Source: Escherichia coli (GTDB lineage Bacteria > Pseudomonadota > Gammaproteobacteria > Enterobacterales > Enterobacteriaceae). From it: 64,000 nt of DNA. Position 1 is the stretch's first letter. Each line of letters starts with the position of its first letter. This document shows, one piece after another, positions 12,875-58,958 of this stretch. Below the pieces are notes generated by a model, which did no database searches, was not told where the DNA came from, and saw nothing but the letters and a program-made list of their open reading frames with translations. The position numbers and the translations under genes were made by a program. The DNA is taken from the NCBI RefSeq assembly GCF_009931435.1, contig NZ_CP043414.1. One strand, given 5' to 3'.

Positions 12875-12990
12875 ACCAAACGACTCGGGGTGCCCTTCTG
12901 CGTGAAGGCTGAGAAATACCCGTATCACCTGATCTGGATAATGCCAGCGTAGGGAAGTCACAGACCACCAGGTCATTGCTTCTTCACGTT
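12875..12990 (+). promoter_or_regulatory. TPP riboswitch (thi box) in the thiM leader
   Basis: ggggtgcccttctgcgtgaaggctgagaaatacccgtatcacctgatctggataatgccagcgtagggaa immediately upstream of thiM; conserved THI-element core (ctgaga, cctgatctggataatgccagcg). Boundaries approximate. Confidence 0.9.
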
Positions 12991-13006: not shown

Positions 13007-13795
13007 ATGCAAGTCGACCTGCTGAGTTCCGCGCAATCAGCGCACGCGTTAAACCTCTTTTACCAACACTCTCCTCTTGTGCATTGCATGACCAATGATG
13101 TGGTGCAAACCTTTACTGCCAATACTTTACTGGTGCTCGGTGCATCGCCAGCGATGGTTATCGAAGCAGAAGAGGCCAGTCAATTTGCGGCTATCGCCAG
13201 TGCCTTGCTAATTAACGTCGGCACGCTGACGCAGCCACGCGCACAGGCAATGCGTGCTGCCGTTGAACAGGCAACACACTCCCAAACGCCCTGGACGCTT
13301 GATCCGGTCGCGGTTGGCGCACTCGATTATCGTCGCCGTTTTTGTCATGAACTTTTATCTTTTAAACCGACAGCGATACGTGGTAATGCTTCGGAAATCA
13401 TGGCATTAGCTGGCGTTGCTAATGGTGGACGGGGAGTGGACACCACTGACGCCGCGGCTAACGCGATACCTGCTGCACAAACACTGGCACGGGAAACTGG
13501 CGCAATCGTCGTGGTCACTGGCGAGGTGGATTATATTACCGATGGTCGTCGCACCGTTGGCATTCACGGCGGCAATTCGTTAATGACCAAAGTGGTAGGA
13601 ACTGGCTGTGCATTATCGGCAGTTGTCGCTGCCTGTTGTGCATTACCAGGCGATATGCTGGAAAATATCGCATCTGCCTGTCACTGGATGAAACAAGCCG
13701 GAGAACGCGCCGTCGCCAGAAGTGAAGGGCCTGGCAGTTTTGTTCCCCATTTTCTTGATGCGCTCTGGCAATTGACGCAGGAGGTGCAGGCATGA
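13007..13795 (+). CDS. thiM: Hydroxyethylthiazole kinase
   Basis: 262-aa ORF directly downstream of the thi box; 4-nt overlap with thiD. Confidence 0.95.
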
Positions 13796-27435: not shown

Positions 27436-28335
27436 TTAACGCAATAATGGACAATCTGGTGGTAATCGACAACGCAACGCCGCCGGAAGTATTTCAATAT
27501 GAAAGTTTTGTCCGCTCAACGGTTCGCCATCAAGATTAAAAGTGATTTCGTGTGGGGCTTGTATATCAAACCACGACGAAGCGCCTTCGATAATATTCGG
27601 GTTATCTTCGTCAGATTTTAAGGTTGATACGAGAGCCGGAAGAATTTCATCGCCGGTAAAAATGCGCAGTTGCAGCAAGCCATCGTTAATTAACGCGTTC
27701 GGACACAATTGCTGACCGCCACCGGCCTGACGCCCGTTACCAATACCAATGACCAGGGCGTCACCTTGCCAGTGAAAGTTTTCACCGCGGATTTCACAAC
27801 GGTCCGGTTGCAGAGTATCCATGCGCATTAAGCCATGAATGATGTAAGAGACGCCACCCAGCGCGGCTTTTAATTTTTCCGGCGTTTCTGTGGTAATACG
27901 CGTCCCAAATCCGCCTGTCGCCATATTAATAAAACAGGTTTGTTTGTTGACCTGCGCCATATCTATCGCAATGGCGTTACCGGCAATTGCCAGTTTCAGC
28001 GCCTTATCCAGTGCCTCAGGAATCCCTACACTGGTGGCAAAATCATTGGCGGTTCCTAATGGCAAAATTCCCAGCGCGGGTATGTCATCCCCCTCACACT
28101 GAATCAACGCCGTAGAAACTTCATTAATGGTGCCATCGCCACCACCGGCAATCACCGTTGCGACGCCCAACTTCCGGGCCTCCTCTACATATCGTGCGGC
28201 ATCGCCTTTCTCCCAGGTGACCCGCACATGGATCGTCATTCCTTCCTCACGCAACAGCATAATTGCTTCGCGCAAGGGTAGATTGTCAGTACTTTTGCCA
28301 TTAAGAATCAGTAAGCTGGCGGGAAATTCTGCCAT
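27436..28335 (-). CDS. yegS: Lipid kinase YegS (DAGK/sphingosine-kinase-like fold)
   Basis: 299-aa ORF with GGDGT motif ([13 protein letters not shown]). Confidence 0.9.
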
Positions 28336-28741
28336 GATCGTATGTGCCTTTATGATTGGTCTGTAGATAGTGTAGAGCAGAAAACAAAAGGTGGAGTCAG
28401 AACAGGATGAAAGTCGGAGGATAAAAAGTCAGTTCAAGTATGGAGGATTCAGTGGTTACCACCAGGAGCTTGCAATGGGGGACAGCGAATACTAACGGCT
28501 GCCACCGATAAATTTCAAAAAAGAGCATATACCTAATATTCAACTAAACAGTGGCATCTTCAATATAATATATTAAAGCCCCCATGGAGTTACCCTGAAG
28601 GGCCTCAATGTCCGTAATTCCTACTTATGTAGGAAATGTTGTACAGAACATTTATTATAATCCTATTCAATTATAATAATCATGCCATTATTATATTTAA
28701 ACACTAGAGAGTGTCGTTGGTATTTAATGGGGGAAGGTGAG

Positions 28742-29059
28742 ATGAAAAAGATAGCTGCTATATCATTAATTAGTATTTTTATTGTGTCTGGTTGTGCTGT
28801 GCATAATGATGAGACAAGTATCGGTAAATTTGGTCTTGCATATAAAAGTAATATTCAGCGTAAACTCGATAACCAATACTACACCGAAGCCGAAGCTTCT
28901 TTAGCCAGGGGCAGAATATCTGGTGCAGAAAATATAGTAAAAAATGATGCAGCCCATTTCTGTGTTACTCAGGGCAAAAAAATGCAGATAGTTGACCTGA
29001 AGACAGAAGGTGCAGGATTACATGGCGTCGCTCGTCTGACATTCAAATGTGGAGAGTGA
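28742..29059 (+). CDS. yegR: Small lipoprotein
   Basis: ATG at 28742 preceded by ggggaaggtgag; MKKIAAISLISIFIVSGCAVH has a lipobox (VSGC); 105 aa. Track ORF carries an unlikely 20-codon extension. Gene symbol from position and size, from memory. Confidence 0.65.
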   Translation: MKKIAAISLISIFIVSGCAVHNDETSIGKFGLAYKSNIQRKLDNQYYTEAEASLARGRISGAENIVKNDAAHFCVTQGKKMQIVDLKTEGAGLHGVARLTFKCGE

Positions 29060-29217
29060 GAATATTTTTTGGTAAGCGTCAAACATGCGCGTTCTGGTTG
29101 TGCTTAGCCGGAACCTGTGCGAGCACGATGCCGTTACGTGAAAGGCATCGTGCTATGAAGGGAGATTCTATCGATGTGGTCAATGGAAGACGGTGACCAG
29201 GGATAGGGCTTATGCAT

Positions 29218-29304
29218 AAAAAATAAGCCCGTGTAAGGGAGATTACACAGGCTAAGGAGGTGGTTCCTGGTACAGCTAGCATTTTATGGGTTATGTTTTT
29301 CAGC
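29218..29304 (-). ncRNA. cyaR: CyaR (RyeE) Hfq-dependent small RNA
   Basis: Minus-strand sequence GCUGAAAAACAUAACCCAUAAAAUGCUAGCUGUACCAGGAACCACCUCCUUAGCCUGUGUAAUCUCCCUUACACGGGCUUAUUUUUU matches the CyaR sequence as I recall it, including the terminator hairpin and U-tail. Confidence 0.85.
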
Positions 29305-29388
29305 GAAACGGATGATAACCTTAATAAATGCAGCTGTATGTGATCGGTTTCTAAGAATTTTCCATCCGGGAAAAATAATCGAAATTAA

Positions 29389-30852: not shown

Positions 30853-31149
30853 TTAGCTCCAGTGTAAATGTCTGGTGGCGTCCTGGTTTTGGTTAAGGAT
30901 ACGAATGACGATAATTTCCCCTGGTGATTGCAGGAAATAAATGACGTGGCGTTCAAAAGAAAGAACAAAAATACCTTCGCCTAATTCAGGTCTGGGCGTA
31001 CCTATATTATTGTTACTCAGAATCTGGAGAACGTCTGAAAGATGTTCCACATATCTGTCGGCTTGTGGTTCGCCGAAATGGTGATAGCTGTAATACCAGA
31101 TGCCTTCTAAATCCTCATTGGCTTTTGGCATGAGTTTAATAATACGCAC
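30853..31149 (-). CDS. ParE/RelE-superfamily type II toxin
   Basis: 98-aa ORF MRIIKLMPKANEDLEGIWYYSYHHFGEPQADRYVEHLSDVLQILSNN, ParE-like; starts 1 nt after the stop of the upstream antitoxin ORF. Confidence 0.8.
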   Translation of the reverse strand: MRIIKLMPKANEDLEGIWYYSYHHFGEPQADRYVEHLSDVLQILSNNNIGTPRPELGEGIFVLSFERHVIYFLQSPGEIIVIRILNQNQDATRHLHWS

Positions 31150-31150
31150 A

Positions 31151-31402
31151 TTATTTCCTTATCCCTGCTTTCACCTTCCGTAAGAACGCGTCCTTTTCCC
31201 ACGGCTGAGCTTCACCACTACTCAACCCTTCTGCGAGCATGTCACGTAACGCTTGCAGGCGAGACTCTGCTTGCTTTTCTCGAAGTAATCGCAGTGACTC
31301 ACGGATCACTTCGCTTTGGGTGCGATAGTCGCCGGATTCAATTAAGGACTCGATAAATTCACGCAACTCATCGCCGAGATCAACCGTCATCGTTCTGGCC
31401 AT
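31151..31402 (-). CDS. ParD-family type II antitoxin (RHH)
   Basis: MARTMTVDLGDELREFIESLIESGDYRTQSEVIRESLRLLREKQ resembles ParD antitoxins; start chosen at ATG 31402 (83 aa) over the track start at 31447. Confidence 0.8.
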   Translation of the reverse strand: MARTMTVDLGDELREFIESLIESGDYRTQSEVIRESLRLLREKQAESRLQALRDMLAEGLSSGEAQPWEKDAFLRKVKAGIRK

Positions 31403-31617
31403 TTTACGCCCGCCTGTAAGTAAAAATCTTACATCAGTGTATGTCATAAACCGGATAGCGTCACGAAAGTATTAGAAGATATTTTGGCACATGAACATGT
31501 TCAGGAGGATAAGTATGGGATGGTAAACAAAGAAAGCACAACGAGTGCTCGTCAGTGCCCACTATTTTAATGGCGGCGGTTACTCTTAATTATTAATAAC
31601 TAAGCGTTATTTGGATA

Positions 31618-41914: not shown

Positions 41915-43161
41915 CAGGAGCGTGCTCCTTTTTTCGCGTATTCGCGGCTGGTGGCTTTCTCTTCCGGAGTGGTGGCGCTCTGGGCTTCCACCACTTCCAC
42001 TTTCGCCCCTTCGGTCAGGCGATCAATGCCGTCTGTCACCACGCGATCGCCCGCAGAAATACCTGCACGGATCACCACTTTCTGACTGTCCTGAATGCCC
42101 GGCGTCACCAGATGTTTGCTGACCTTGTTTTCGCTATTCAGCACCCAGACAAAATGGCCTTCATTGCCCATTTGCAGGGCGGCTGTTGGGATCACTACGG
42201 CGTTTTGTTCGGTGTCGACTAACATGCGCGCGTTAACAAACTGATTGGGAAACAGCGCATCATCCTGATTATTAAAGCGTGCTTTCACTTTAATCGTACC
42301 GGTTGTGGCATCGATTTGGTTATCGAGGCTTAACAGCGTGCCTTCACTTAATTTCTTCGAATTGGTGCGATCCCAGGCTTCTACCACCAGCGGTTTTCCG
42401 GCTTTTTGCGCCTGCACTACAGTAGCGATATCGCTTTCCGGCAGGGTAAAGACTAAATCGATAGGATGCGTCTGGGTGATCACCACAATTCCGGTGGTAT
42501 CACCACTGGAGATTTGGTTACCAACATCAACCTGCTTGAGACCAACGCGACCATCGACTGGTGCGGTGATGCGGCTCCAGTCGAGTTGCAGCTGCGCGCT
42601 GGCGACGCTTGCTTCATCAGCCTTAATGGTGCCTTCGGTTTCACTGACCAGCGCCTGTTGGGCATCCAGCTCCTGACGGGAGACGAGATTGGTTTTTGCC
42701 AGTTGCTGATAACGCGCCAGATCACGGCGGGCGTTAGCAAGCGTGGCTTTATCTTTTGCCAGTTGGCCCTGGGCTTGTGCTAATGCAACTTTGAACTGGC
42801 TGGGGTCAATTTCTGCCAGTAAATCGCCTGCTTTGACCTGCTGGCCTTCCTGGAAATGTAACGCCATCAGTTGACCGTCCACGCGGCTGCGCACCGTAAC
42901 AGTATTAGCGGCGGTAATGGTGCCAAGCCCGGTGAGGTAACGCGGAACTGCCTGTTCTACGGCGGTCGCCGCCTGAACCGGGGCTAATGGGCCGGAACGC
43001 ATACCACGGCGACCACCCGCTGGCGATTGCTGCGCTTGTTTCGTCGCCCCTGGGGCTGCACTCTGGGAGTCATTGCGGCCTTGCCAGAACCAGAATGCGG
43101 CGATGGCGGCGATAACCACCACGATTACGATTACCCAACGGGATTTATAACTGCCTTTCAT
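41914..43161 (-). CDS. mdtA: RND efflux membrane-fusion protein MdtA
   Basis: Track ORF starts with GTG at 43308; internal ATG at 43161 gives [27 protein letters not shown] (415 aa) as I recall for MdtA. Stop overlaps the mdtB start. Confidence 0.9.
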
Positions 43162-43214: not shown

Positions 43215-43232
43215 GCCAATAAGGGAGAAAAA
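43215..43232 (-). promoter_or_regulatory. BaeR-box-like sequence upstream of mdtA
   Basis: Minus-strand TTTTTCTCCCTTATTGGC, close to the BaeR binding consensus as I recall it (TTTTTCTCCATDATTGGC). Confidence 0.55.
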
Positions 43233-43389
43233 TGGAGGAATTATGAAACACTATCGGGAATCGTCTGAATGGCGGGCACATTTGCGAGCACGCATCCAGT
43301 AATAACACAGGAAACTATTTTATCTACGCGTTAGCGATGGACTGCATACAGGGCGAAAGGAGGTAAGCCGCAGATTTCAGCCGGATGCT

Positions 43390-43531
43390 GAAACGGGAAA
43401 GCCCCTCCCGAGGAAGGGGCCTTAAATAAGGAAAGGGTCATGATGAAGCTACTCATCATCGTGGTGCTCTTAGTGATTAGCTACCCAGCATACTAAGACT
43501 ACCAGGGCGGGGGAAACCCCGCTCTACCCTC
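43390..43531 (-). ncRNA. sibB: Sib antisense RNA covering ibsB
   Basis: Minus-strand promoter: -35 TTGACA (revcomp of about 43562-43567), 17-nt spacer, -10 TACTTT (revcomp of about 43539-43544); terminator-like hairpin gcccctcc...ggaagggg near 43401-43420. Ends approximate. Confidence 0.6.
43440..43496 (+). CDS. ibsB: Type I toxin Ibs (18 aa, hydrophobic)
   Basis: ATGATGAAGCTACTC... encodes MMKLLIIVVLLVISYPAY, preceded by aaggaaaggg. A/B assignment by position (copy nearer mdtA), from memory. Confidence 0.8.
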   Translation: MMKLLIIVVLLVISYPAY

Positions 43532-43717
43532 ACTCCTGAAAGTATGCCTTCACGATAAGATTGTCAATCCGCAGGATTTGCCGTCTGCGATCCTGCCAGC
43601 AAATATTCTTTGCGAGTCGTTACGCAATAATCACAGAGGAAACTATTTTATTCACGCGTTAGCGATAGACTGCATTCAGGGCGAAAGGAGGTAAGCCGAT
43701 GATTTCAGCGGGACGCT

Positions 43718-43866
43718 GAAACGGGAAAGCCTCTCCCGGAGAAGAGGGCTTTTAATAAGGAAAGGGTTATGATGAAGCACGTCATCATACTGGTGATACT
43801 CTTAGTGATTAGCTTCCAGGCTTACTAAGAACACCAGGGGGAGGGGGAAACCTCTCCCTAACCCTC
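43718..43866 (-). ncRNA. sibA: Sib antisense RNA covering ibsA
   Basis: Minus-strand promoter: -35 TTGACA (revcomp of about 43897-43902), 17-nt spacer, -10 TAATTT (revcomp of about 43874-43879); hairpin gcctctcccggagaagagggc near 43730-43750. Ends approximate. Confidence 0.6.
43769..43828 (+). CDS. ibsA: Type I toxin Ibs (19 aa, hydrophobic)
   Basis: ATGATGAAGCACGTC... encodes MMKHVIILVILLVISFQAY; second copy of the repeat unit, nearer yegL. Confidence 0.8.
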   Translation: MMKHVIILVILLVISFQAY

Positions 43867-44048
43867 ACTCCTGAAATTATGTCACTCCGCACTTAGTGTC
43901 AATCGACGGCTCTCCGTTCTTGCGAGGCGAATAGCAAAATTTTCTGCGCCGCCGGGCCTAATTCTGAAAGTTTCTTCGTTTGCTCTTATTTCATTATTGC
44001 AGTCGGTATGATACCGGACCTCGATAATTCTCTAAGAAAGGATTTCTT

Positions 44049-44708
44049 ATGAGCGAACAAATCACGTTTGCCACCAGCGATTTTGCCAGTAACCCGGAAC
44101 CACGTTGCCCCTGCATTTTGCTGCTGGATGTTTCTGGCTCGATGAGCGGCAGACCTATTAATGAACTTAACGCCGGATTGGTGACCTTTCGTGATGAACT
44201 GCTTGCCGATCCGCTGGCTTTAAAAAGAGTGGAACTCGGCATTGTGACGTTCGGCCCGGTGCATGTGGAACAACCCTTTACCAGCGCCGCTAATTTTTTT
44301 CCGCCCATCCTGTTTGCCCAGGGCGATACACCAATGGGTGCGGCCATTACCAAAGCCCTGGATATGGTAGAGGAGCGGAAACGTGAGTATCGTGCAAATG
44401 GTATTTCGTATTATCGCCCGTGGATTTTCCTGATTACCGATGGTGCACCAACCGATGAGTGGCAGGCTGCAGCCAACAAAGTGTTTCGGGGGGAAGAAGA
44501 TAAAAGGTTTGCTTTCTTTTCCATCGGTGTTCAGGGGGCGGATATGAAGACGCTGGCCCAAATCAGCGTTCGTCAGCCTTTGCCTCTGCAAGGATTACAA
44601 TTCCGTGAACTGTTTAGCTGGTTATCCAGTTCGCTGCGTTCGGTTTCCCGCTCCACGCCGGGAACGGAAGTTGTGCTGGAAGCGCCAAAAGGCTGGACGT
44701 CAGTGTGA
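44049..44708 (+). CDS. yegL: von Willebrand factor A domain protein (TerY-like)
   Basis: 219-aa ORF with MIDAS-type DxSxS motif ([11 protein letters not shown]) and downstream acidic residues ([12 protein letters not shown]). Confidence 0.9.
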
Positions 44709-45466
44709 GCTGGCGTCTGGTTTATGCATCCGCTGTTGGAACATCGCACATCAGCGCGGACTTGCCTTGCCAGGATGCCTGCCAGATGCAGGTTGCCTGG
44801 CTAAATGACCAGCAGCCATTACTGGTGATGTTCCTTGCTGATGGCGCAGGTAGCGTTTCGCAGGGAGGAGAAGGCGCGACGCTCGCCGTCAATGAAGCGA
44901 TGGCTTATATGTCGCAAAAAGTGCAGGGTGGGGAATTGGGGCTTAATGATATCCTCGCCACGGATATTGTGCTGACCGTTTGTCAGCGACTTTTTGCCGA
45001 GGCGGAAGCCAAAGAATTAGCAGTTCGCGATTTTGCCTGCACGTTTCTGGGATTGATTTCATCGCCTGACGGCACCTTGATTATGCAGATTGGCGATGGC
45101 GGCGTGGTGGTGGATTTTGGTCACGGTCTGCAATTGCCGCTTACGCCGATGGTGGGTGAATATGCCAATATGACGCACTTCATTACCGATGAAGATGCCG
45201 TTTCCAGACTGGAAACTTTCACCAGCACTGAGCGTGTGCATAAAGTTGCAGCATTTACGGATGGTATCCAGCGACTGGCGTTAAATATGCTGGATAATTC
45301 TCCTCATGTACCTTTCTTTACCCCGTTTTTCAATGGACTGGCGTCAGCAACGCAGGAACAACTCGATTTATTACCTGAATTGTTAAAGCAGTTTTTGTCC
45401 AGCCCGGCGGTAAACGAGCGTACGGATGATGATAAAACGTTGGCACTGGCGCTGTGGTTACCATGA
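44705..45466 (+). CDS. yegK: PP2C-like Ser/Thr protein phosphatase
   Basis: 253-aa ORF starting with GTG that overlaps the yegL stop (GTGA); metal-binding Asp motifs ([10 protein letters not shown]; [11 protein letters not shown]; AFTDG). Confidence 0.88.
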
Positions 45467-47403
45467 AACCCACTTTATATACTGCTACTGGTGAGTGCGT
45501 TACGCCAGGCCGTGAACTGGGCAAAGGCGGTGAAGGCGCGGTTTATGATATCAATGAGTTTGTCGATAGCGTCGCCAAGATTTATCACACGCCGCCACCC
45601 GCCTTAAAACAGGACAAACTTGCCTTTATGGCTGCGACAGCTGACGCGCAATTGTTGAATTATGTCGCCTGGCCGCAGGCAACGCTTCACGGTGGACGAG
45701 GCGGAAAAGTTATCGGTTTTATGATGCCAAAAGTTTCTGGTAAAGAACCGATTCATATGATCTATAGCCCGGCACATCGTCGTCAACGTTACCCTCATTG
45801 TGCGTGGGATTTTCTACTCTATGTTGCGCGCAATATTGCTTCATCTTTTGCTACGGTTCACGAGCACGGGCACGTCGTGGGTGACGTAAACCAGAACAGT
45901 TTTATGGTAGGTCGCGACAGCAAAGTGGTATTGATTGATAGCGACTCCTTTCAGATTAACGCTAATGGCACGTTGCATTTATGCGAAGTCGGTGTGTCGC
46001 ATTTTACGCCGCCAGAGCTACAAACCTTGTCGTCATTTGTCGGCTTTGAACGCACCGCGAATCACGATAATTTTGGCCTTGCCTTGCTGATATTTCACGT
46101 CTTGTTTGGTGGTCGGCATCCTTATTCCGGTGTACCGCTTATCTCTGAAGCGGGTAATGCACTGGAGACGGATATTGCCCATTTCCGTTATGCCTACGCG
46201 TCAGACAACCAGCTACGTGGTTTAAAACCGCCGCCACGATCGATTCCGCTGGCGATGTTACCGGGCCATGTTGAAGCCATGTTTCAGCAGGCATTCACGG
46301 AAAGTGGCGTGGCAACCGGGCGTCCGACGGCTAAAGCGTGGGTAGCGGCACTGGACTCTCTACGCCAACATTTAAAGAAATGTACCGTTTCAGCAATGCA
46401 TGTTTACCCCGCTCATTTGACTGACTGCCCGTGGTGTGCGCTGGATAATCAAGGCGTTATCTATTTTATTGATCTCGGCGAAGAGGTCATTACCACCAGC
46501 GGTGATTTTGTGCTGGCGAAATTCTGGGCGATGGTGATGGCGTCAGTAGCACCGCCAGCATTGCAATTGCCATTACCCGATCATTTCCAACCGACTGGCC
46601 GGCCGCTTCCTTTAGGCCTGTTACGGCGCGAATACATCATTCTGATTGAGATCGCACTGTCAGCGTTATCGCTGTTGCTTTGCGGCCTTCAGGCAGAACC
46701 GCGTTATATTATTTTGGTTCCTGTGCTGGCGGCTATCTGGATTATTGGCAGTCTGACAAGCAAAGCTTATAAAGCAGAAATCCAGCAACGCCGTGAGGCA
46801 TTTAATCGCGCGAAAATGGACTATGACCATTTAGTCAACCAGATCCAACAGTTGGGCGGGCTGGAAGGTTTTATCGCCAAACGGGCGATGCTCGAAAAAA
46901 TGAAAGACGAAATTCTCGGGTTACCGGAAGAAGAGAAACGCGCTCTGGCAGCACTTCACGACACCGCAAGGGAACGGCAGAAGCAGAAGTTTCTGGAGGG
47001 ATTTTTTATTGATGTTGCCTCTATTCCCGGCGTTGGCCCTGCGCGTAAAGCGGCGTTACGGTCCTTTGGTATTGAAACAGCGGCAGATGTTACCCGTCGT
47101 GGTGTTAAGCAAGTGAAAGGGTTTGGCGACCATCTGACCCAGGCAGTTATCGACTGGAAAGCAAGTTGCGAACGCCGTTTTGTGTTCAGGCCGAACGAAG
47201 CGGTAACGCCAGCAGACAGACAAGCGGTAATGGCGAAAATGACCGCCAAACGACATCGGCTGGAATCGACGTTGACTGTCGGCGCGACAGAGTTGCAGCG
47301 ATTTCGCCTTCATGCTCCAGCACGGACCATGCCGTTGATGGAACCTTTACGTCAGGCGGCAGAAAAACTGGCTCAGGCGCAGGCAGATTTAAGCCGCTGC
47401 TGA
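45463..47403 (+). CDS. yegI: Ser/Thr protein kinase-like protein with C-terminal helical/TM region
   Basis: ATG overlapping the yegK stop (ATGA); Gly-rich loop (GKGGEGAVYD), catalytic-loop-like (HGHVVGDVNQNSF), DFG-like (IDSDSF); predicted TM segment around residues 380-420. Confidence 0.88.
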   Translation: MKPTLYTATGECVTPGRELGKGGEGAVYDINEFVDSVAKIYHTPPPALKQDKLAFMAATADAQLLNYVAWPQATLHGGRGGKVIGFMMPKVSGKEPIHMIYSPAHRRQRYPHCAWDFLLYVARNIASSFATVHEHGHVVGDVNQNSFMVGRDSKVVLIDSDSFQINANGTLHLCEVGVSHFTPPELQTLSSFVGFERTANHDNFGLALLIFHVLFGGRHPYSGVPLISEAGNALETDIAHFRYAYASDNQLRGLKPPPRSIPLAMLPGHVEAMFQQAFTESGVATGRPTAKAWVAALDSLRQHLKKCTVSAMHVYPAHLTDCPWCALDNQGVIYFIDLGEEVITTSGDFVLAKFWAMVMASVAPPALQLPLPDHFQPTGRPLPLGLLRREYIILIEIALSALSLLLCGLQAEPRYIILVPVLAAIWIIGSLTSKAYKAEIQQRREAFNRAKMDYDHLVNQIQQLGGLEGFIAKRAMLEKMKDEILGLPEEEKRALAALHDTARERQKQKFLEGFFIDVASIPGVGPARKAALRSFGIETAADVTRRGVKQVKGFGDHLTQAVIDWKASCERRFVFRPNEAVTPADRQAVMAKMTAKRHRLESTLTVGATELQRFRLHAPARTMPLMEPLRQAAEKLAQAQADLSRC

Positions 47404-49796: not shown

Positions 49797-52700
49797 TCAG
49801 TTAATCGCGAAATAACTGCTATTCACCAGCAAATCCAGCGGTTGGGCATCGGCAATCACATCACCATAAATCAGATCGACGCCGATGCCAGAAAGCGTAT
49901 CCATCACTAAGGGTAAAACGACTGGCCCGGCGATGGTTTTCATCCCGAGTCGCTGAGCGTGCCCCTGAATAATCGTAATCAGCATCTCATCCATCAAATT
50001 ACCCTGCACGTTGGCGCATAACTCACCATCAAGTAGCAGGTAATCTGCCATATTCGCTTTCAGCGAGTTGAAGATTTGCAGATCGCGGCCCACCTGGCTG
50101 AGCACTATCCGACATCCCGCCAGCCGCAGTTTTTGCACGCTTTCTGCGTGATCTAAAATCGCGTCTGCCGGAATAATCAGATGTAATAACCGTGGTGGTA
50201 GAGGGCTATTTTCCAGCTGCTCAAGCAGATCATTCACCAGCGTGGCGCTACTCAAACCGGCAACGGAAAGGGGGAGGGCGATGCTTATGCCTTTACTGGC
50301 AACCGCTTTTGCGGCCAGCTGGAAAAATTCGTGGAATACCCGTCGGTCAAGAGCATGGCTAAGTGCCGGATCGCTGAAGCTACGACGAAATTTTTGTTCA
50401 TCAATAATCTCGCCTTCGCAACTCCAGAGTTTAAGCGAAATCAGCCACAAATTACGCGCTTCCGGGATCCGCGGCGAAGCGACACCGTGGGCCATCATCA
50501 TCAACTGATTCTCTTTAATCATCCGCCACTGTTCATCAAGCGACATCGCCGCCCGTTCGCTATGTGCGGCAGCTTGCTGTGGTTCGTAAACCGTCACCCG
50601 GCCACGGCCACCATTTTTGGAGGCATAACAGGCGATATCAGCCTGCGACATCACTTCAGCCGCCTGATGATTGTTGTCATCAATCAAGGTAATCCCGGCA
50701 CTGGCACCTACCCGATGTACACGTCCTTCCCAGATAAAGTGATAGTCATTCACAGCACTGATAATACGTGTAGCGATAAAACGAGCGCTTTCGACATTGC
50801 AGTCTGGCAGCAGCAGACCAAATTCATCACCGCCGAGCCGCGCCAGCACGTCGCTGGAGCGCAGCATGCTCAGCATCAACGACGCCAGTTCGCGCAGTAA
50901 AGCGTCGCCAGCGGCGTGCCCGGCGCTGTCATTCACCGCTTTAAAGCGATCAAGATCGATAAACACCAGGGCATGTCGCTGATGTGTACTGTTTACCGTT
51001 TGCAGCAGGATACGCAGTTGCTTCTCAAAACTGGCGCGATTGGCGAGATGCGTTAGTGCATCATGGGAGGCGCTGTAGCTCAGCTGGCGTAGCATTTTGC
51101 GTGATTCGGTGACGTCCTGAATCACCAGAACCGAACCAATATTGCTGCCGTCCAGAGTACTTAACGGCGTAATACTGTAATGCACGTCGTAGCTGCCGCC
51201 GCTCCGGCAGTGCAACACCACATCTTGTTCAATCGCGGAACGTGAGGTGTCGGCACTGTAAATGTTCTCCATCAGGGGACCATTGTCGCCAAAGGTAATA
51301 TGCAACACCGTCAGGAGCGGAACACCTAATGCTTCTTCCTGCGTCCAGCCGCTCATCTTCTCCGCCACTGGATTCATAAAGGTAATTTTCATTGCCATAT
51401 CAATACAGACCACGGCTTCGCCGATGGAGTCCAGCGTTATGTGCAGGCGCTCTTTTTCCTGAAACAATGCCTCGTTAAGCTGTTTAACCTCAGTCATATC
51501 CATATTAATGCCGAGCAGGCGTTCGACTTCGCCTTCTTTATTCAGTACCCGGTTGGCGAGGGCGCGGATATGGCGAATACCGTCTTTTACGGTAATGCGA
51601 AATTCCAGTTTAAAGGGCGAGCGTGATTGCAACGAATCACGAATCACTTTTTCGGCATGCTGGCGATCTTCCGGCAGCACGCACTCGTACCACACCTGCC
51701 AGTTCGGTTTGATATGTGGAGGAATTTCATACAGCTCGAACATCCGCTTATCCCAGCTAAAAATATTCGGCTTCAACTCCCACTCCCAGATGCCAATCCC
51801 GCCCGCTTCGTTAGCCAGCGTGATGCGCTCCATCAGTTGCTGATTCACCTGTTCGGTGCGTTTTAGCTCGTTAATGTCTTCAATCTGAGCGATAAAATAG
51901 AGCGGCGTGCCATCCGTGTGGCGCACCAGTGAGACGGCAAGCAACGCCCAGACAACATCGCCATTGCGGTTGTAGTAGCGTTTTTCCATTGAATAGGTGT
52001 TTATTTCACCGCTTATCAGCTTTTCAACCTGTTGGAGATCTTTATTGAGATCCTCCGGCCAGGTCAGTTGCTGAAAGGTGAGTCCGCGCAGCTCTTCCTG
52101 ACTGTACCCGAGAAACTGGCAGAGCGCTTTGTTGGTTTGCAGCCATTGTCCCTCGGTGCCCACTAACGCCATACCGATAGCGGAATATTCCATGGCGTTC
52201 CGAAAACGGGTTTCGCTTTCGGAAATGTGTTTGCGTTCCGCACGAAAGGCATACATCACCATCGTCATGATGTTGGCGGGCAGCAGGATCAGCAAAAACG
52301 GTAGCCACGGCATATGGCTCATCAGGTATGTACGCGGCGTAGCAAGCAGGGAGGGATCCGCGGCCATCATCAGCGACACCATCATCACCGTGGTAAGGAA
52401 GATCAAAAAGGCTTCCATTCGTGGCAGGCGCACGGCGCTCCACATCAACAGCACAATAATGAAAGTAAAAGGCCACGGCAGATACAGCATCGAAAGCCAG
52501 CTTAACGTCAGTGTGATGGCTAACGTGAGCAGCGACTCAAAAAGCAACCGTGGGTTGCGATGGCGCAGCAGATAGTGTGGTTTAAATAACAATCCCAGCG
52601 GCACCAGTGCCAGAGCGCCGATGGATTCTGACAGTACCCATATCAAAAATGCCCTGAGAGGATCGTCTCCGGCCGTCAGCAGGACAACCAGACCCCCCCC

Positions 52701-53114
52701 CAACAGAGGCGGAACAATGGCGCTGCCGAGTGCCAGACGCAGCCAGTCAGCCAGATTTTGCAAGGGGTTATACCACGGCAGCAATTTACGTAGCAGCACT
52801 GCCCCGACCACGGCTTCAACAATATTGATGGTCGTCCAGGTCATGTTCAGCGAGCTGGTGGAAAAAAGCAGGATGGATGCGGCGATATTTCCCAGCGAGC
52901 AGCTCAGCGCAATTCCCGGCCACATGCGCCCGGCATGGCGATAAAACGCCACCATCATGATGGACGTCGGGAACCACAGTGGGGCGAGTTGGGTGCCAAA
53001 CTGCGAAAGCTCAAGCGAGAAAAGGGTAAAGATAAACGAGACTAAACCTAAACTGACCAGGTGAAGCAGCGGGTGGGGCAGGGCAATTAATACATGCTGT
53101 GATTGTTTGCTCAT
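49797..53114 (-). CDS. dgcE: Diguanylate cyclase/phosphodiesterase with MASE1, PAS, GGDEF and EAL domains
   Basis: 1105-aa ORF; membrane N-terminus, PAS-like regions, GGDEF motif (RLGGDEFGLLL), EAL-type C-terminus. Confidence 0.95.
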   Translation of the reverse strand: MSKQSQHVLIALPHPLLHLVSLGLVSFIFTLFSLELSQFGTQLAPLWFPTSIMMVAFYRHAGRMWPGIALSCSLGNIAASILLFSTSSLNMTWTTINIVEAVVGAVLLRKLLPWYNPLQNLADWLRLALGSAIVPPLLGGGLVVLLTAGDDPLRAFLIWVLSESIGALALVPLGLLFKPHYLLRHRNPRLLFESLLTLAITLTLSWLSMLYLPWPFTFIIVLLMWSAVRLPRMEAFLIFLTTVMMVSLMMAADPSLLATPRTYLMSHMPWLPFLLILLPANIMTMVMYAFRAERKHISESETRFRNAMEYSAIGMALVGTEGQWLQTNKALCQFLGYSQEELRGLTFQQLTWPEDLNKDLQQVEKLISGEINTYSMEKRYYNRNGDVVWALLAVSLVRHTDGTPLYFIAQIEDINELKRTEQVNQQLMERITLANEAGGIGIWEWELKPNIFSWDKRMFELYEIPPHIKPNWQVWYECVLPEDRQHAEKVIRDSLQSRSPFKLEFRITVKDGIRHIRALANRVLNKEGEVERLLGINMDMTEVKQLNEALFQEKERLHITLDSIGEAVVCIDMAMKITFMNPVAEKMSGWTQEEALGVPLLTVLHITFGDNGPLMENIYSADTSRSAIEQDVVLHCRSGGSYDVHYSITPLSTLDGSNIGSVLVIQDVTESRKMLRQLSYSASHDALTHLANRASFEKQLRILLQTVNSTHQRHALVFIDLDRFKAVNDSAGHAAGDALLRELASLMLSMLRSSDVLARLGGDEFGLLLPDCNVESARFIATRIISAVNDYHFIWEGRVHRVGASAGITLIDDNNHQAAEVMSQADIACYASKNGGRGRVTVYEPQQAAAHSERAAMSLDEQWRMIKENQLMMMAHGVASPRIPEARNLWLISLKLWSCEGEIIDEQKFRRSFSDPALSHALDRRVFHEFFQLAAKAVASKGISIALPLSVAGLSSATLVNDLLEQLENSPLPPRLLHLIIPADAILDHAESVQKLRLAGCRIVLSQVGRDLQIFNSLKANMADYLLLDGELCANVQGNLMDEMLITIIQGHAQRLGMKTIAGPVVLPLVMDTLSGIGVDLIYGDVIADAQPLDLLVNSSYFAIN

Positions 53115-58478: not shown

Positions 58479-58946
58479 AGTAAGTACAAAACCTATTCGT
58501 TGTATGACAAATGTCACAATTCGATCATGGATAAATCGGGGCAAAAATGCAATGTTGCAGCACTATTTATCTCATATTATTTGAGGGTAATAACCTCACA
58601 TTATCCCTGAATTAAAAGTGGTAATAATAAAACATTATTTAAGAAATATCGCATGTGGAGGCGCAATATTAAATATTGTCAACCTAAAGAAACTCCTAAA
58701 AACCATATTGAATGACACTTAATATAATTCTTAAAAATAGCCAATTGCCGAATTGTTACCTTGCCTGCTATTCCGTTAGCTGTAACACTTCCTCCTGCAT
58801 TATTGGAGAGCCAATATTCAATTACCATAATGTCACCTTATATTCGGAAGTTAATTTCCGCAATAACCCTTTCTCATCAACGATTGTATGCAGAGAGGGT
58901 TTGAAAAATTAAGCTAAATCAGTGTATTGGTAGCTAAAAAGCCAGG

Positions 58947-58958
58947 GGCGGTAGCGTG
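58947..58958 (+). promoter_or_regulatory. ops (operon polarity suppressor) element in the wza 5' leader
   Basis: ggcggtagcgtg seen directly, about 180 nt upstream of the wza ATG; matches the RfaH-recruiting ops consensus GGCGGTAGnnTG. Confidence 0.7.

What the first reader, a model, noticed from the sequence alone, without database searches (positions are those of the whole stretch)
43310..43880. Two tandem Ibs/Sib type I toxin-antitoxin units with readable antisense promoters
A duplicated unit carries two tiny hydrophobic ORFs on the plus strand (MMKLLIIVVLLVISYPAY and MMKHVIILVILLVISFQAY), each with a Shine-Dalgarno sequence. Opposite each ORF, on the minus strand, is a near-consensus sigma-70 promoter (TTGACA, 17 nt, TACTTT or TAATTT) positioned to make an antisense RNA covering the whole ORF and ending at a hairpin. 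The second peptide ends FQAY where I recall FPAY for K-12 IbsA, a possible strain variant if my memory is right.
Basis: partly seen in the sequence, partly recalled or inferred. Interest (0 to 1): 0.5.

Follow-up and report, generated by a model that had tools for sequence, protein, structure and literature searches.

The report
Known E. coli ibsB-sibB, ibsA-sibA locus

Summary
Window 43281-43902 holds the two tandem ibs/sib type I toxin-antitoxin units found between mdtA and yegL in almost every E. coli (5,419 of 5,426 complete genomes). Rfam SIB_RNA matches the minus strand twice (149 and 142 bits; threshold 56). The second unit is identical to K-12 ibsA/sibA over the whole 144-nt RNA and the 19-aa peptide. 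The first is the ibsB/sibB ortholog.

Three corrections:
- K-12 IbsA itself ends FQAY, so the suspected strain variant does not exist.
- The real difference is in the other peptide, IbsB F15Y. It is a common allele (2,513 of 5,426 genomes).
- The Sib promoters have a perfect -35 and a 17-nt spacer, but their -10 hexamers match TATAAT at only 3 of 6 positions. The locus also runs past the stated coordinates at both ends.

Two minor points are new but small. All five differences between the ibsB alleles fall in the TRD1 recognition loop of SibB. One base upstream of ibsB (G43339) is seen in no other complete genome.

Verdict: already known, low interest.

The parts
43281..43423 (+). Conserved 5' part of unit 1 (ibsB upstream region and 5' UTR). 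It is the repeat partner of 43609-43751. The inferred ibsB transcription start is near 43378.
   Evidence: Direct repeat D1, 84% identity. The start is inferred from the 18-nt 5' overhang of ibsC mRNA beyond the SibC 3' end (PMC2943612). It was not mapped for ibsB.
43428..43432 (+). ibsB Shine-Dalgarno core AAGGA, 7 nt before the ATG. It lies inside the SibB TRD2 target.
   Evidence: Sequence; TRD2 mapping.
43440..43496 (+). ibsB, an 18-aa hydrophobic toxin ORF MMKLLIIVVLLVISYPAY (Y15 allele).
   Evidence: Translation. 17 of 18 residues match K-12 IbsB b4668. Identical to RefSeq WP_001386901.1 'Ibs family toxin'. This allele is in 2,513 of 5,426 genomes.
43396..43531 (-). SibB antisense antitoxin RNA, 136 nt, +1 G at 43531. 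It covers the ibsB ribosome-binding site and the whole ORF.
   Evidence: Ends mapped from K-12 sibB b4437 through a gap-free alignment. Rfam RF00113, 141.6 bits. Fold -59.6 kcal/mol, z -3.9. +1G agrees with PMC12956327.
43539..43567 (-). SibB sigma-70 promoter: -35 TTGACA (43567-43562), 17-nt spacer, -10 TACTTT (43544-43539).
   Evidence: Sequence. Seven nt separate the -10 from the annotated +1. The homologous sibD 35-bp promoter is sigma-70 dependent.
43398..43423 (-). SibB terminator hairpin (11 pairs, then UUUCC).
   Evidence: Fold. The K-12 annotated 3' end lies just after it.
43468..43490 (-). SibB TRD1 (homolog of SibC +46..+68), pairing with ibsB ORF nt 29-51. It holds all five differences between the two E. 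coli ibsB alleles.
   Evidence: Alignment to SibC and TRD definitions from PMC2943612. SNP positions 43475, 43478, 43483, 43487 and 43490.
43422..43440 (-). SibB TRD2 (homolog of SibC +99..+115), pairing with the ibsB Shine-Dalgarno region and start codon.
   Evidence: PMC2943612.
43609..43751 (+). Conserved 5' part of unit 2 (ibsA upstream region and 5' UTR). The inferred ibsA transcription start is near 43705.
   Evidence: Repeat D1. Start inferred as for ibsB.
43769..43828 (+). ibsA, a 19-aa toxin ORF MMKHVIILVILLVISFQAY, with Shine-Dalgarno AAGGA at 43757-43761.
   Evidence: DNA and peptide are identical to K-12 ibsA b4667. RefSeq WP_010723109.1 'toxin IbsA'.
43723..43866 (-). SibA antisense antitoxin RNA, 144 nt, +1 G at 43866. 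TRD1 is at 43800-43822, TRD2 at 43751-43769, and the terminator hairpin at 43726-43752.
   Evidence: 144 of 144 nt identical to K-12 sibA b4436. Rfam RF00113, 149.1 bits. Fold -54.7 kcal/mol, z -4.4.
43874..43902 (-). SibA sigma-70 promoter: -35 TTGACA (43902-43897), 17-nt spacer, -10 TAATTT (43879-43874). The one difference from K-12 in this unit is in the spacer (A43891 versus C).
   Evidence: Sequence.

Best explanation
The region is the chromosomal ibsB-sibB / ibsA-sibA locus of Escherichia coli. It consists of two tandem type I toxin-antitoxin units in the mdtA-yegL intergenic region.

Each unit encodes an 18- or 19-residue hydrophobic membrane peptide (Ibs) on the plus strand. A constitutive sigma-70 promoter on the minus strand makes a 136- or 144-nt Sib RNA that is fully complementary to the ibs ribosome-binding site and ORF.

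Sib first contacts the ibs mRNA through two exposed segments: TRD1 in the 3' half of the ORF and TRD2 over the Shine-Dalgarno sequence and start codon. Pairing then spreads. This blocks translation and gives a duplex that RNase III degrades, so the toxin is not made. If Ibs were made, it would insert in the inner membrane, collapse membrane potential and ATP supply, and stop growth.

What is shown here: the sequence anatomy, the family matches, and identity or orthology to the K-12 genes. What is carried over from published work on K-12 sibC/ibsC, sibD and Salmonella ibsA: transcription, repression and toxicity.
For: - Rfam SIB_RNA (RF00113) gives two full-length minus-strand matches of 149.1 and 141.6 bits against a gathering score of 56.
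- Unit 2 is identical to K-12 ibsA (60 of 60 nt) and sibA (144 of 144 nt).
- Unit 1 aligns without gaps to K-12 ibsB/sibB.
- The flanking genes are the same as in K-12, mdtA on one side and yegL-pphC on the other.
- The locus is in 5,419 of 5,426 complete E. coli genomes, with the ORFs annotated as Ibs toxins.
- The promoters place +1 at G43531 and G43866, matching the published +1G of sibA and sibB.
- Both RNAs fold far better than shuffles and end in a terminator hairpin.
- The two ibsB alleles differ by 4 synonymous changes and 1 conservative change. P is about 0.01 for at least 4 of 5 being synonymous by chance, so the peptide is under coding constraint.
- Published mechanism: TRD1, TRD2 and RNase III in vitro; an ibsA/sibA dsRNA cluster captured in vivo; membrane depolarisation by IbsC; Salmonella IbsA inhibits the Fo sector of ATP synthase.
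Against: - Nothing in the sequence contradicts this reading.
- No expression or toxicity data exist for this strain.
- K-12 annotation calls IbsB only a 'putative' toxic peptide.
- No convincing sigma-70 promoter for ibsA or ibsB could be read. The promoter elements of ibsC and ibsD are not conserved in the A and B units.
- Cells lacking sibA tolerate ibsA expression, so the cognate pair is not strictly required there.
- NCBIfam gave no Ibs model hit, but the peptides are too short for that tool.
Confidence: 0.97

Rival explanations
1. One or both units are silenced relics. The Sib RNAs are still made, but the ibs genes are not expressed enough, or the peptides (especially IbsB-Y15) are not toxic enough, to matter. 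On this reading the locus no longer works as a toxin-antitoxin pair in this strain.
For: - No good sigma-70 promoter can be read upstream of ibsA or ibsB, and the ibsC/ibsD promoter elements are not conserved there.
- IbsB is annotated as 'putative' in K-12.
- Cells lacking sibA survive ibsA expression.
- A private base change, G43339, lies near -39 of the inferred ibsB start.
Against: - Both ORFs, their ribosome-binding sites and both Sib promoters are intact and kept in nearly all E. coli.
- The allele differences are 4 synonymous to 1 conservative.
- dsRNA from ibsA/sibA is captured in vivo, so both strands are transcribed in K-12.
- The C-terminal residues needed for IbsC toxicity are retained apart from the F-to-Y change.
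Confidence: 0.1
2. The Sib RNAs of this locus act mainly on non-cognate targets, such as other ibs mRNAs or unrelated mRNAs, rather than each repressing only the gene opposite it.
For: - ibsA is reported to be repressed by non-cognate Sib RNAs.
- SibA and SibB share a 14-nt identical run in TRD2, and in this strain a 15-nt identical run in TRD1.
Against: - Published assays show cognate-only repression for the other pairs, and SibA does not repress ibsE.
- Full complementarity to the opposite gene makes the cis target by far the best one.
- No trans target is known.
Confidence: 0.05
3. The small ORFs and promoter-like hexamers are chance features of a repeated intergenic sequence.
For: The ORFs are below usual gene-calling length, and the generic promoter scan did not call the Sib promoters.
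Against: - Rfam E-values are 4e-31 and 3e-29.
- Unit 2 is identical to experimentally studied K-12 genes.
- The locus is conserved in 5,419 genomes.
- The substitutions follow a coding pattern.
Confidence: 0.005

Closest known systems
E. coli K-12 ibsA/sibA (b4667/b4436; SibA = RyeC, QUAD1a - the older names are from my own knowledge)
   Same: The 60-nt ORF and the 144-nt RNA are identical. The position next to yegL is the same. The promoter has the same -35, -10 and +1G.
   Different: One base differs, in the promoter spacer (A43891 versus C in K-12).
E. coli K-12 ibsB/sibB (b4668/b4437)
   Same: Same position next to mdtA, same length (18 aa, 136 nt), identical Sib promoter, gap-free alignment.
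   Different: - There are 14 base differences in the unit.
- Six lie in the SibB transcript, and five of those in TRD1.
- The peptide has F15Y.
- This is a common alternative allele, found in 46% of complete genomes.
E. coli K-12 ibsC/sibC, the experimentally dissected member (Han et al. 2010, PMC2943612)
   Same: Same architecture and same Sib fold, with TRD1 and TRD2 at homologous positions and the same terminator type.
   Different: - It is a single copy at another locus (fau-serA).
- Its +1 is A, so the RNA can be NAD-capped, whereas sibA and sibB start with G.
- The ibsC promoter elements are not conserved upstream of ibsA and ibsB.
Other chromosomal type I toxin-antitoxin repeats of E. 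coli (ldr/rdl, hok/sok, zorO/orzO)
   Same: Small hydrophobic toxin, antisense RNA antitoxin, often tandemly duplicated in one intergenic region.
   Different: - The sequence families are unrelated.
- In those systems the antisense RNA overlaps only part of the mRNA or its 5' UTR.
- Sib covers the entire ribosome-binding site and ORF.

Membership tests
Sib RNA (Rfam RF00113) | Match to the family covariance model at or above the gathering score | tested here: met
   149.1 and 141.6 bits against a threshold of 56, full model length 1-147, both on the minus strand.
Sib RNA (Rfam RF00113) | A ~136-145-nt RNA with its own sigma-70 promoter and terminal hairpin, with ends matching the mapped K-12 RNAs | tested here: met
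   Gap-free mapping of K-12 sibA and sibB gives 43866-43723 and 43531-43396. TTGACA-17-TAATTT/TACTTT lies 7 nt upstream of +1G. Each RNA ends in an 11-pair hairpin.
Sib RNA (Rfam RF00113) | Abundant transcript detectable in vivo | not testable with these tools
   Known for K-12. No expression data exist for this strain.
Ibs toxin family | An 18-19-aa hydrophobic ORF with a ribosome-binding site, lying entirely opposite a Sib RNA | tested here: met
   ORFs at 43440-43496 and 43769-43828 lie inside 43396-43531 and 43723-43866. AAGGA is 7 nt upstream of each ATG.
Ibs toxin family | Sequence identity to named Ibs proteins | tested here: met
   IbsA is 19 of 19 identical to K-12 b4667. IbsB is 17 of 18 identical to K-12 b4668 and identical to WP_001386901.1, 'type I toxin-antitoxin system Ibs family toxin'.
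Ibs toxin family | Match to a curated protein profile | tested here: inconclusive
   NCBIfam returned no Ibs model for the peptides padded to 20 aa. They are too short for a significant HMM score, and the Pfam tool needs at least 30 aa.
Ibs toxin family | Growth arrest or membrane depolarisation on overexpression | not testable with these tools
   Published for IbsC and Salmonella IbsA. Not known for the IbsB-Y15 allele.
Type I toxin-antitoxin system | The antitoxin is an RNA complementary to the toxin mRNA's translation initiation region and/or ORF | tested here: met
   The antitoxin is encoded on the opposite strand, so complementarity is perfect. It spans from 44-46 nt upstream of the ATG to 35-38 nt past the stop codon.
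Type I toxin-antitoxin system | The antisense RNA represses toxin synthesis | not testable with these tools
   Shown for SibC/ibsC and SibD/ibsD. Inferred here by homology.
ibsAB-sibAB locus of E. coli | Tandem pair in the mdtA-yegL intergenic region | tested here: met
   mdtA ends at 43161 (-) and yegL starts at 44049 (+). The order is the same as K-12 and 5,241 genomes with a full-length match.

The most novel reading that the evidence does not exclude
In this strain, and in about 46% of E. coli, the sibB/ibsB allele has a TRD1 loop whose 3' two-thirds is identical to that of sibA/ibsA: a 15-nt identical run, against 7 nt in K-12. All five allele differences lie in TRD1. This may reflect short-tract gene conversion between the tandem copies. 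It could relax cognate discrimination, so that SibA and SibB cross-protect against each other's toxins. In addition, a base found in no other complete genome (G43339) lies near -39 of the inferred ibsB start and could alter ibsB expression.
Probability: 0.12. Interest if true: 0.25.

Novelty: already known. Interest (0 to 1): 0.07.

Why it matters
It matters little as a discovery. This is a textbook chromosomal type I toxin-antitoxin locus, first described in 2008 and present in nearly every E. coli.

The check still has some value:
- It corrects a false 'variant' that came from a faulty memory of the K-12 peptide.
- It documents that natural variation at ibsB/sibB is concentrated in the antisense RNA's recognition loop (TRD1). 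This is a small, testable point about how duplicated antisense pairs keep or lose specificity.

Tried and rejected
- The generic promoter and terminator scan did not call the Sib promoters, whose -10 hexamers match 3 of 6, or the Sib terminators, which have only 3 U. It found only a plus-strand terminator-like site that is the reverse complement of the SibA terminator. I relied instead on K-12 mapped ends and the literature.
- The NCBIfam search of the peptides gave nothing useful because they are too short. Pfam and the exact-sequence look-ups need at least 30 aa and were not run.
- The primary paper (Fozo et al. 2008, PMC2597788) and the 2008 MMBR review (PMC2593563) are not held. What I report of those results comes from papers that cite the 2008 work.
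- I tried to read the ibsA and ibsB promoters by aligning them to the ibsC and ibsD upstream regions. The C/D/E elements, which I read as TTGTGT/TTGCGT and TACGAT/AACAAT, are not conserved in A and B. The ibsA and ibsB promoters and starts therefore stay inferred.
- Simple gene conversion from ibsA into ibsB is not clean. At the five variable sites the window allele matches ibsA at two, the K-12 allele matches ibsA at two, and neither matches at one. I keep it only as speculation.
- The E. coli collection already answered the question.

Full report
**Observation**

Reading the sequence and translating it confirms two tiny plus-strand ORFs.
- 43440-43496 encodes MMKLLIIVVLLVISYPAY.
- 43769-43828 encodes MMKHVIILVILLVISFQAY.
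- Each has AAGGA 7 nt upstream of the ATG.

They sit in a duplicated unit with a period of 328-335 nt and 72-84% identity between copies.

On the minus strand, each ORF faces TTGACA, a 17-nt spacer, and then TACTTT (43567-43539) or TAATTT (43902-43874).

The generic promoter scan did not list these sites because the -10 hexamers match TATAAT at only 3 of 6 positions. They do keep the first T, the A at position 2 and the final T. 'Near-consensus' is therefore true of the -35 and the spacing only.

The stated range 43310-43880 is slightly too narrow. The repeat starts at 43281 and the second promoter ends at 43902.

**Identity**

A scan of the whole window against Rfam gives two full-length minus-strand matches to SIB_RNA (RF00113). 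They score 149.1 and 141.6 bits against a gathering score of 56, with E-values of 4e-31 and 3e-29.

A 701-nt query around the locus matches 5,419 of 5,426 complete E. coli genomes, and the ORFs there are annotated as Ibs toxins. The flanking genes are mdtA (minus strand, ending at 43161) and yegL-pphC-yegI (plus strand, from 44049), as in K-12 in reverse orientation.

The window aligns to K-12 MG1655 across the whole intergenic region without gaps. The annotated K-12 RNAs therefore map directly.
- SibB is 43531 to 43396, 136 nt.
- SibA is 43866 to 43723, 144 nt.
- Both start with G, and 7 nt lie between the proposed -10 and +1. This agrees with the published +1G of sibA and sibB and with the sigma-70 dependence of the 35-bp sib promoter (PMC12956327).

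Both RNAs fold much better than shuffled controls (z of -3.9 and -4.4) and end in an 11-pair hairpin followed by UUUCC.

The unit next to mdtA is ibsB/sibB. The unit next to yegL is ibsA/sibA.

**The 'variant'**

It does not. K-12 b4667 translates to MMKHVIILVILLVISFQAY, identical to the window, and SibA is identical over all 144 nt. The only difference from K-12 in unit A is one base in the SibA promoter spacer (43891).

The real difference is in IbsB. K-12 has ...ISFPAY and the window has ...ISYPAY (F15Y), with four synonymous changes nearby. I probed each allele with a 37-nt sequence in which every 28-mer spans all five sites.
- The window allele is in 2,513 of 5,426 genomes.
- The K-12 allele is in 2,992 of 5,426 genomes.

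This is an ordinary dimorphism, already present in RefSeq as WP_001386901.1. A split of four synonymous changes to one conservative change has P of about 0.01 by chance, which argues that the peptide is under coding constraint.

**Mechanism**

Everything beyond the anatomy is carried over from published work.

- Recognition. Han et al. 2010 (PMC2943612) showed that SibC recognises ibsC mRNA through two independent domains. TRD1 (+46..+68) is a loop pairing with the 3' half of the ORF. TRD2 (+99..+115) pairs with the translation initiation region. Pairing then spreads, and the full duplex is an RNase III substrate.
- Mapping to the window. Aligning the window's Sib RNAs to SibC places TRD1 at 43468-43490 (SibB) and 43800-43822 (SibA). 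TRD2 lies at 43422-43440 and 43751-43769, over the Shine-Dalgarno sequences and start codons.
- In vivo evidence. An ibsA/sibA dsRNA cluster is captured in E. coli by p19, so both strands are transcribed there (PMC7373196).
- Toxin action. IbsC depolarises the membrane and needs its central and C-terminal residues (review PMC8309996). A Salmonella Ibs peptide inhibits the Fo sector of ATP synthase (bioRxiv 10.1101/2025.05.26.656083).
- ibs transcription starts. By homology with the 18-nt 5' overhang of ibsC mRNA, ibsB and ibsA should start near 43378 and 43705. I could not read a convincing promoter there, and the ibsC/ibsD promoter elements are not conserved in the A and B units.

**Small points that are not in the annotation**

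1. All five differences between the ibsB alleles fall inside SibB TRD1. In this strain SibA and SibB share a 15-nt identical run in TRD1, against 7 nt in K-12. This might weaken discrimination between the two pairs. It fits the published note that ibsA is repressed by non-cognate Sib RNAs, but it is speculation.
2. Unit B differs from K-12 at 14 sites and unit A at 1.
3. G43339, about 39 nt upstream of the inferred ibsB start, is found in none of the 5,426 genomes. The 19 best genomes differ from the window only at this base.

**Membership**

Tested and met:
- the Rfam model match;
- the RNA ends, promoter and hairpin;
- the ORF lying fully opposite the RNA;
- identity to named Ibs proteins;
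- synteny.

A protein-profile test was inconclusive because the peptides are too short. Transcription, repression and toxicity cannot be tested with these tools.

**Verdict**

This is a correct recognition of an already known, near-universal E. coli locus. Novelty: already known. Interest: low.

Noticed in passing
window 43339: G here is found in none of 5,426 complete E. coli genomes. K-12, the 19 closest genomes and the paralogous ibsA copy all have A. It lies about 39 nt upstream of the inferred ibsB start, in the column that aligns with the -35 hexamer I read for ibsC and ibsD.
   Followed up: partly
window 43215-43232 (-): BaeR-binding box TTTTTCTCCCTTATTGGC, 1 mismatch to the published consensus and about 0.02 expected by chance. 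It lies upstream of mdtA, so the BaeR-controlled mdtA promoter region sits back-to-back with the ibsB unit.
   Followed up: partly
window 43281-43902: Against K-12, the ibsB/sibB unit has 14 base differences and the ibsA/sibA unit only 1. Polymorphism is very uneven between the two tandem copies.
   Followed up: partly
window 43425-43567 and 43754-43902 (-): The Rfam SIB_RNA model begins at the -35 hexamer and stops before the terminator. Its hit coordinates are therefore shifted about 36 nt upstream of the real transcripts (43396-43531 and 43723-43866).
   Followed up: yes
window 30853-31447 (-): Two 98-aa ORFs between trhP and yegP are annotated in the closest genome as a RelE/ParE-family toxin and a ParD antitoxin. 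This ~780-bp segment is absent from K-12, where the yegP-trhP gap is 146 bp.
   Followed up: partly
window 44705-47403 (+): pphC overlaps yegI directly (45454-45466). K-12's yegJ gene and the 725-bp yegI-pphC spacer have no match anywhere in the window.
   Followed up: partly
window 28335-29306: CyaR (29221-29306, minus strand, Rfam 100.7 bits) is present, but the PR-X cryptic prophage remnant (ogrK, yegZ) that adjoins cyaR in K-12 has no match in the window.
   Followed up: partly
window 49797-53114 (-): dgcE (diguanylate cyclase) is an intact 1,105-aa ORF here but is annotated as frameshifted in the closest genome, STEC17-190.
   Followed up: no
window 12876-12972 (+) and 58920-58958 (+): A TPP riboswitch lies just upstream of an ORF starting at 13007, which I take to be thiM from K-12 gene order (not checked). 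A JUMPstart element lies upstream of wza (59137), the start of the colanic acid cluster. Both are expected features.
   Followed up: no
window 43730-43748 (+): On the ibs-sense strand, the reverse complement of the SibA terminator forms a hairpin followed by TTTTAATA, just upstream of the ibsA Shine-Dalgarno sequence. It might attenuate ibsA transcription or sequester part of the 5' UTR. The ibsB copy has TTAAATAA instead and was not called.
   Followed up: no
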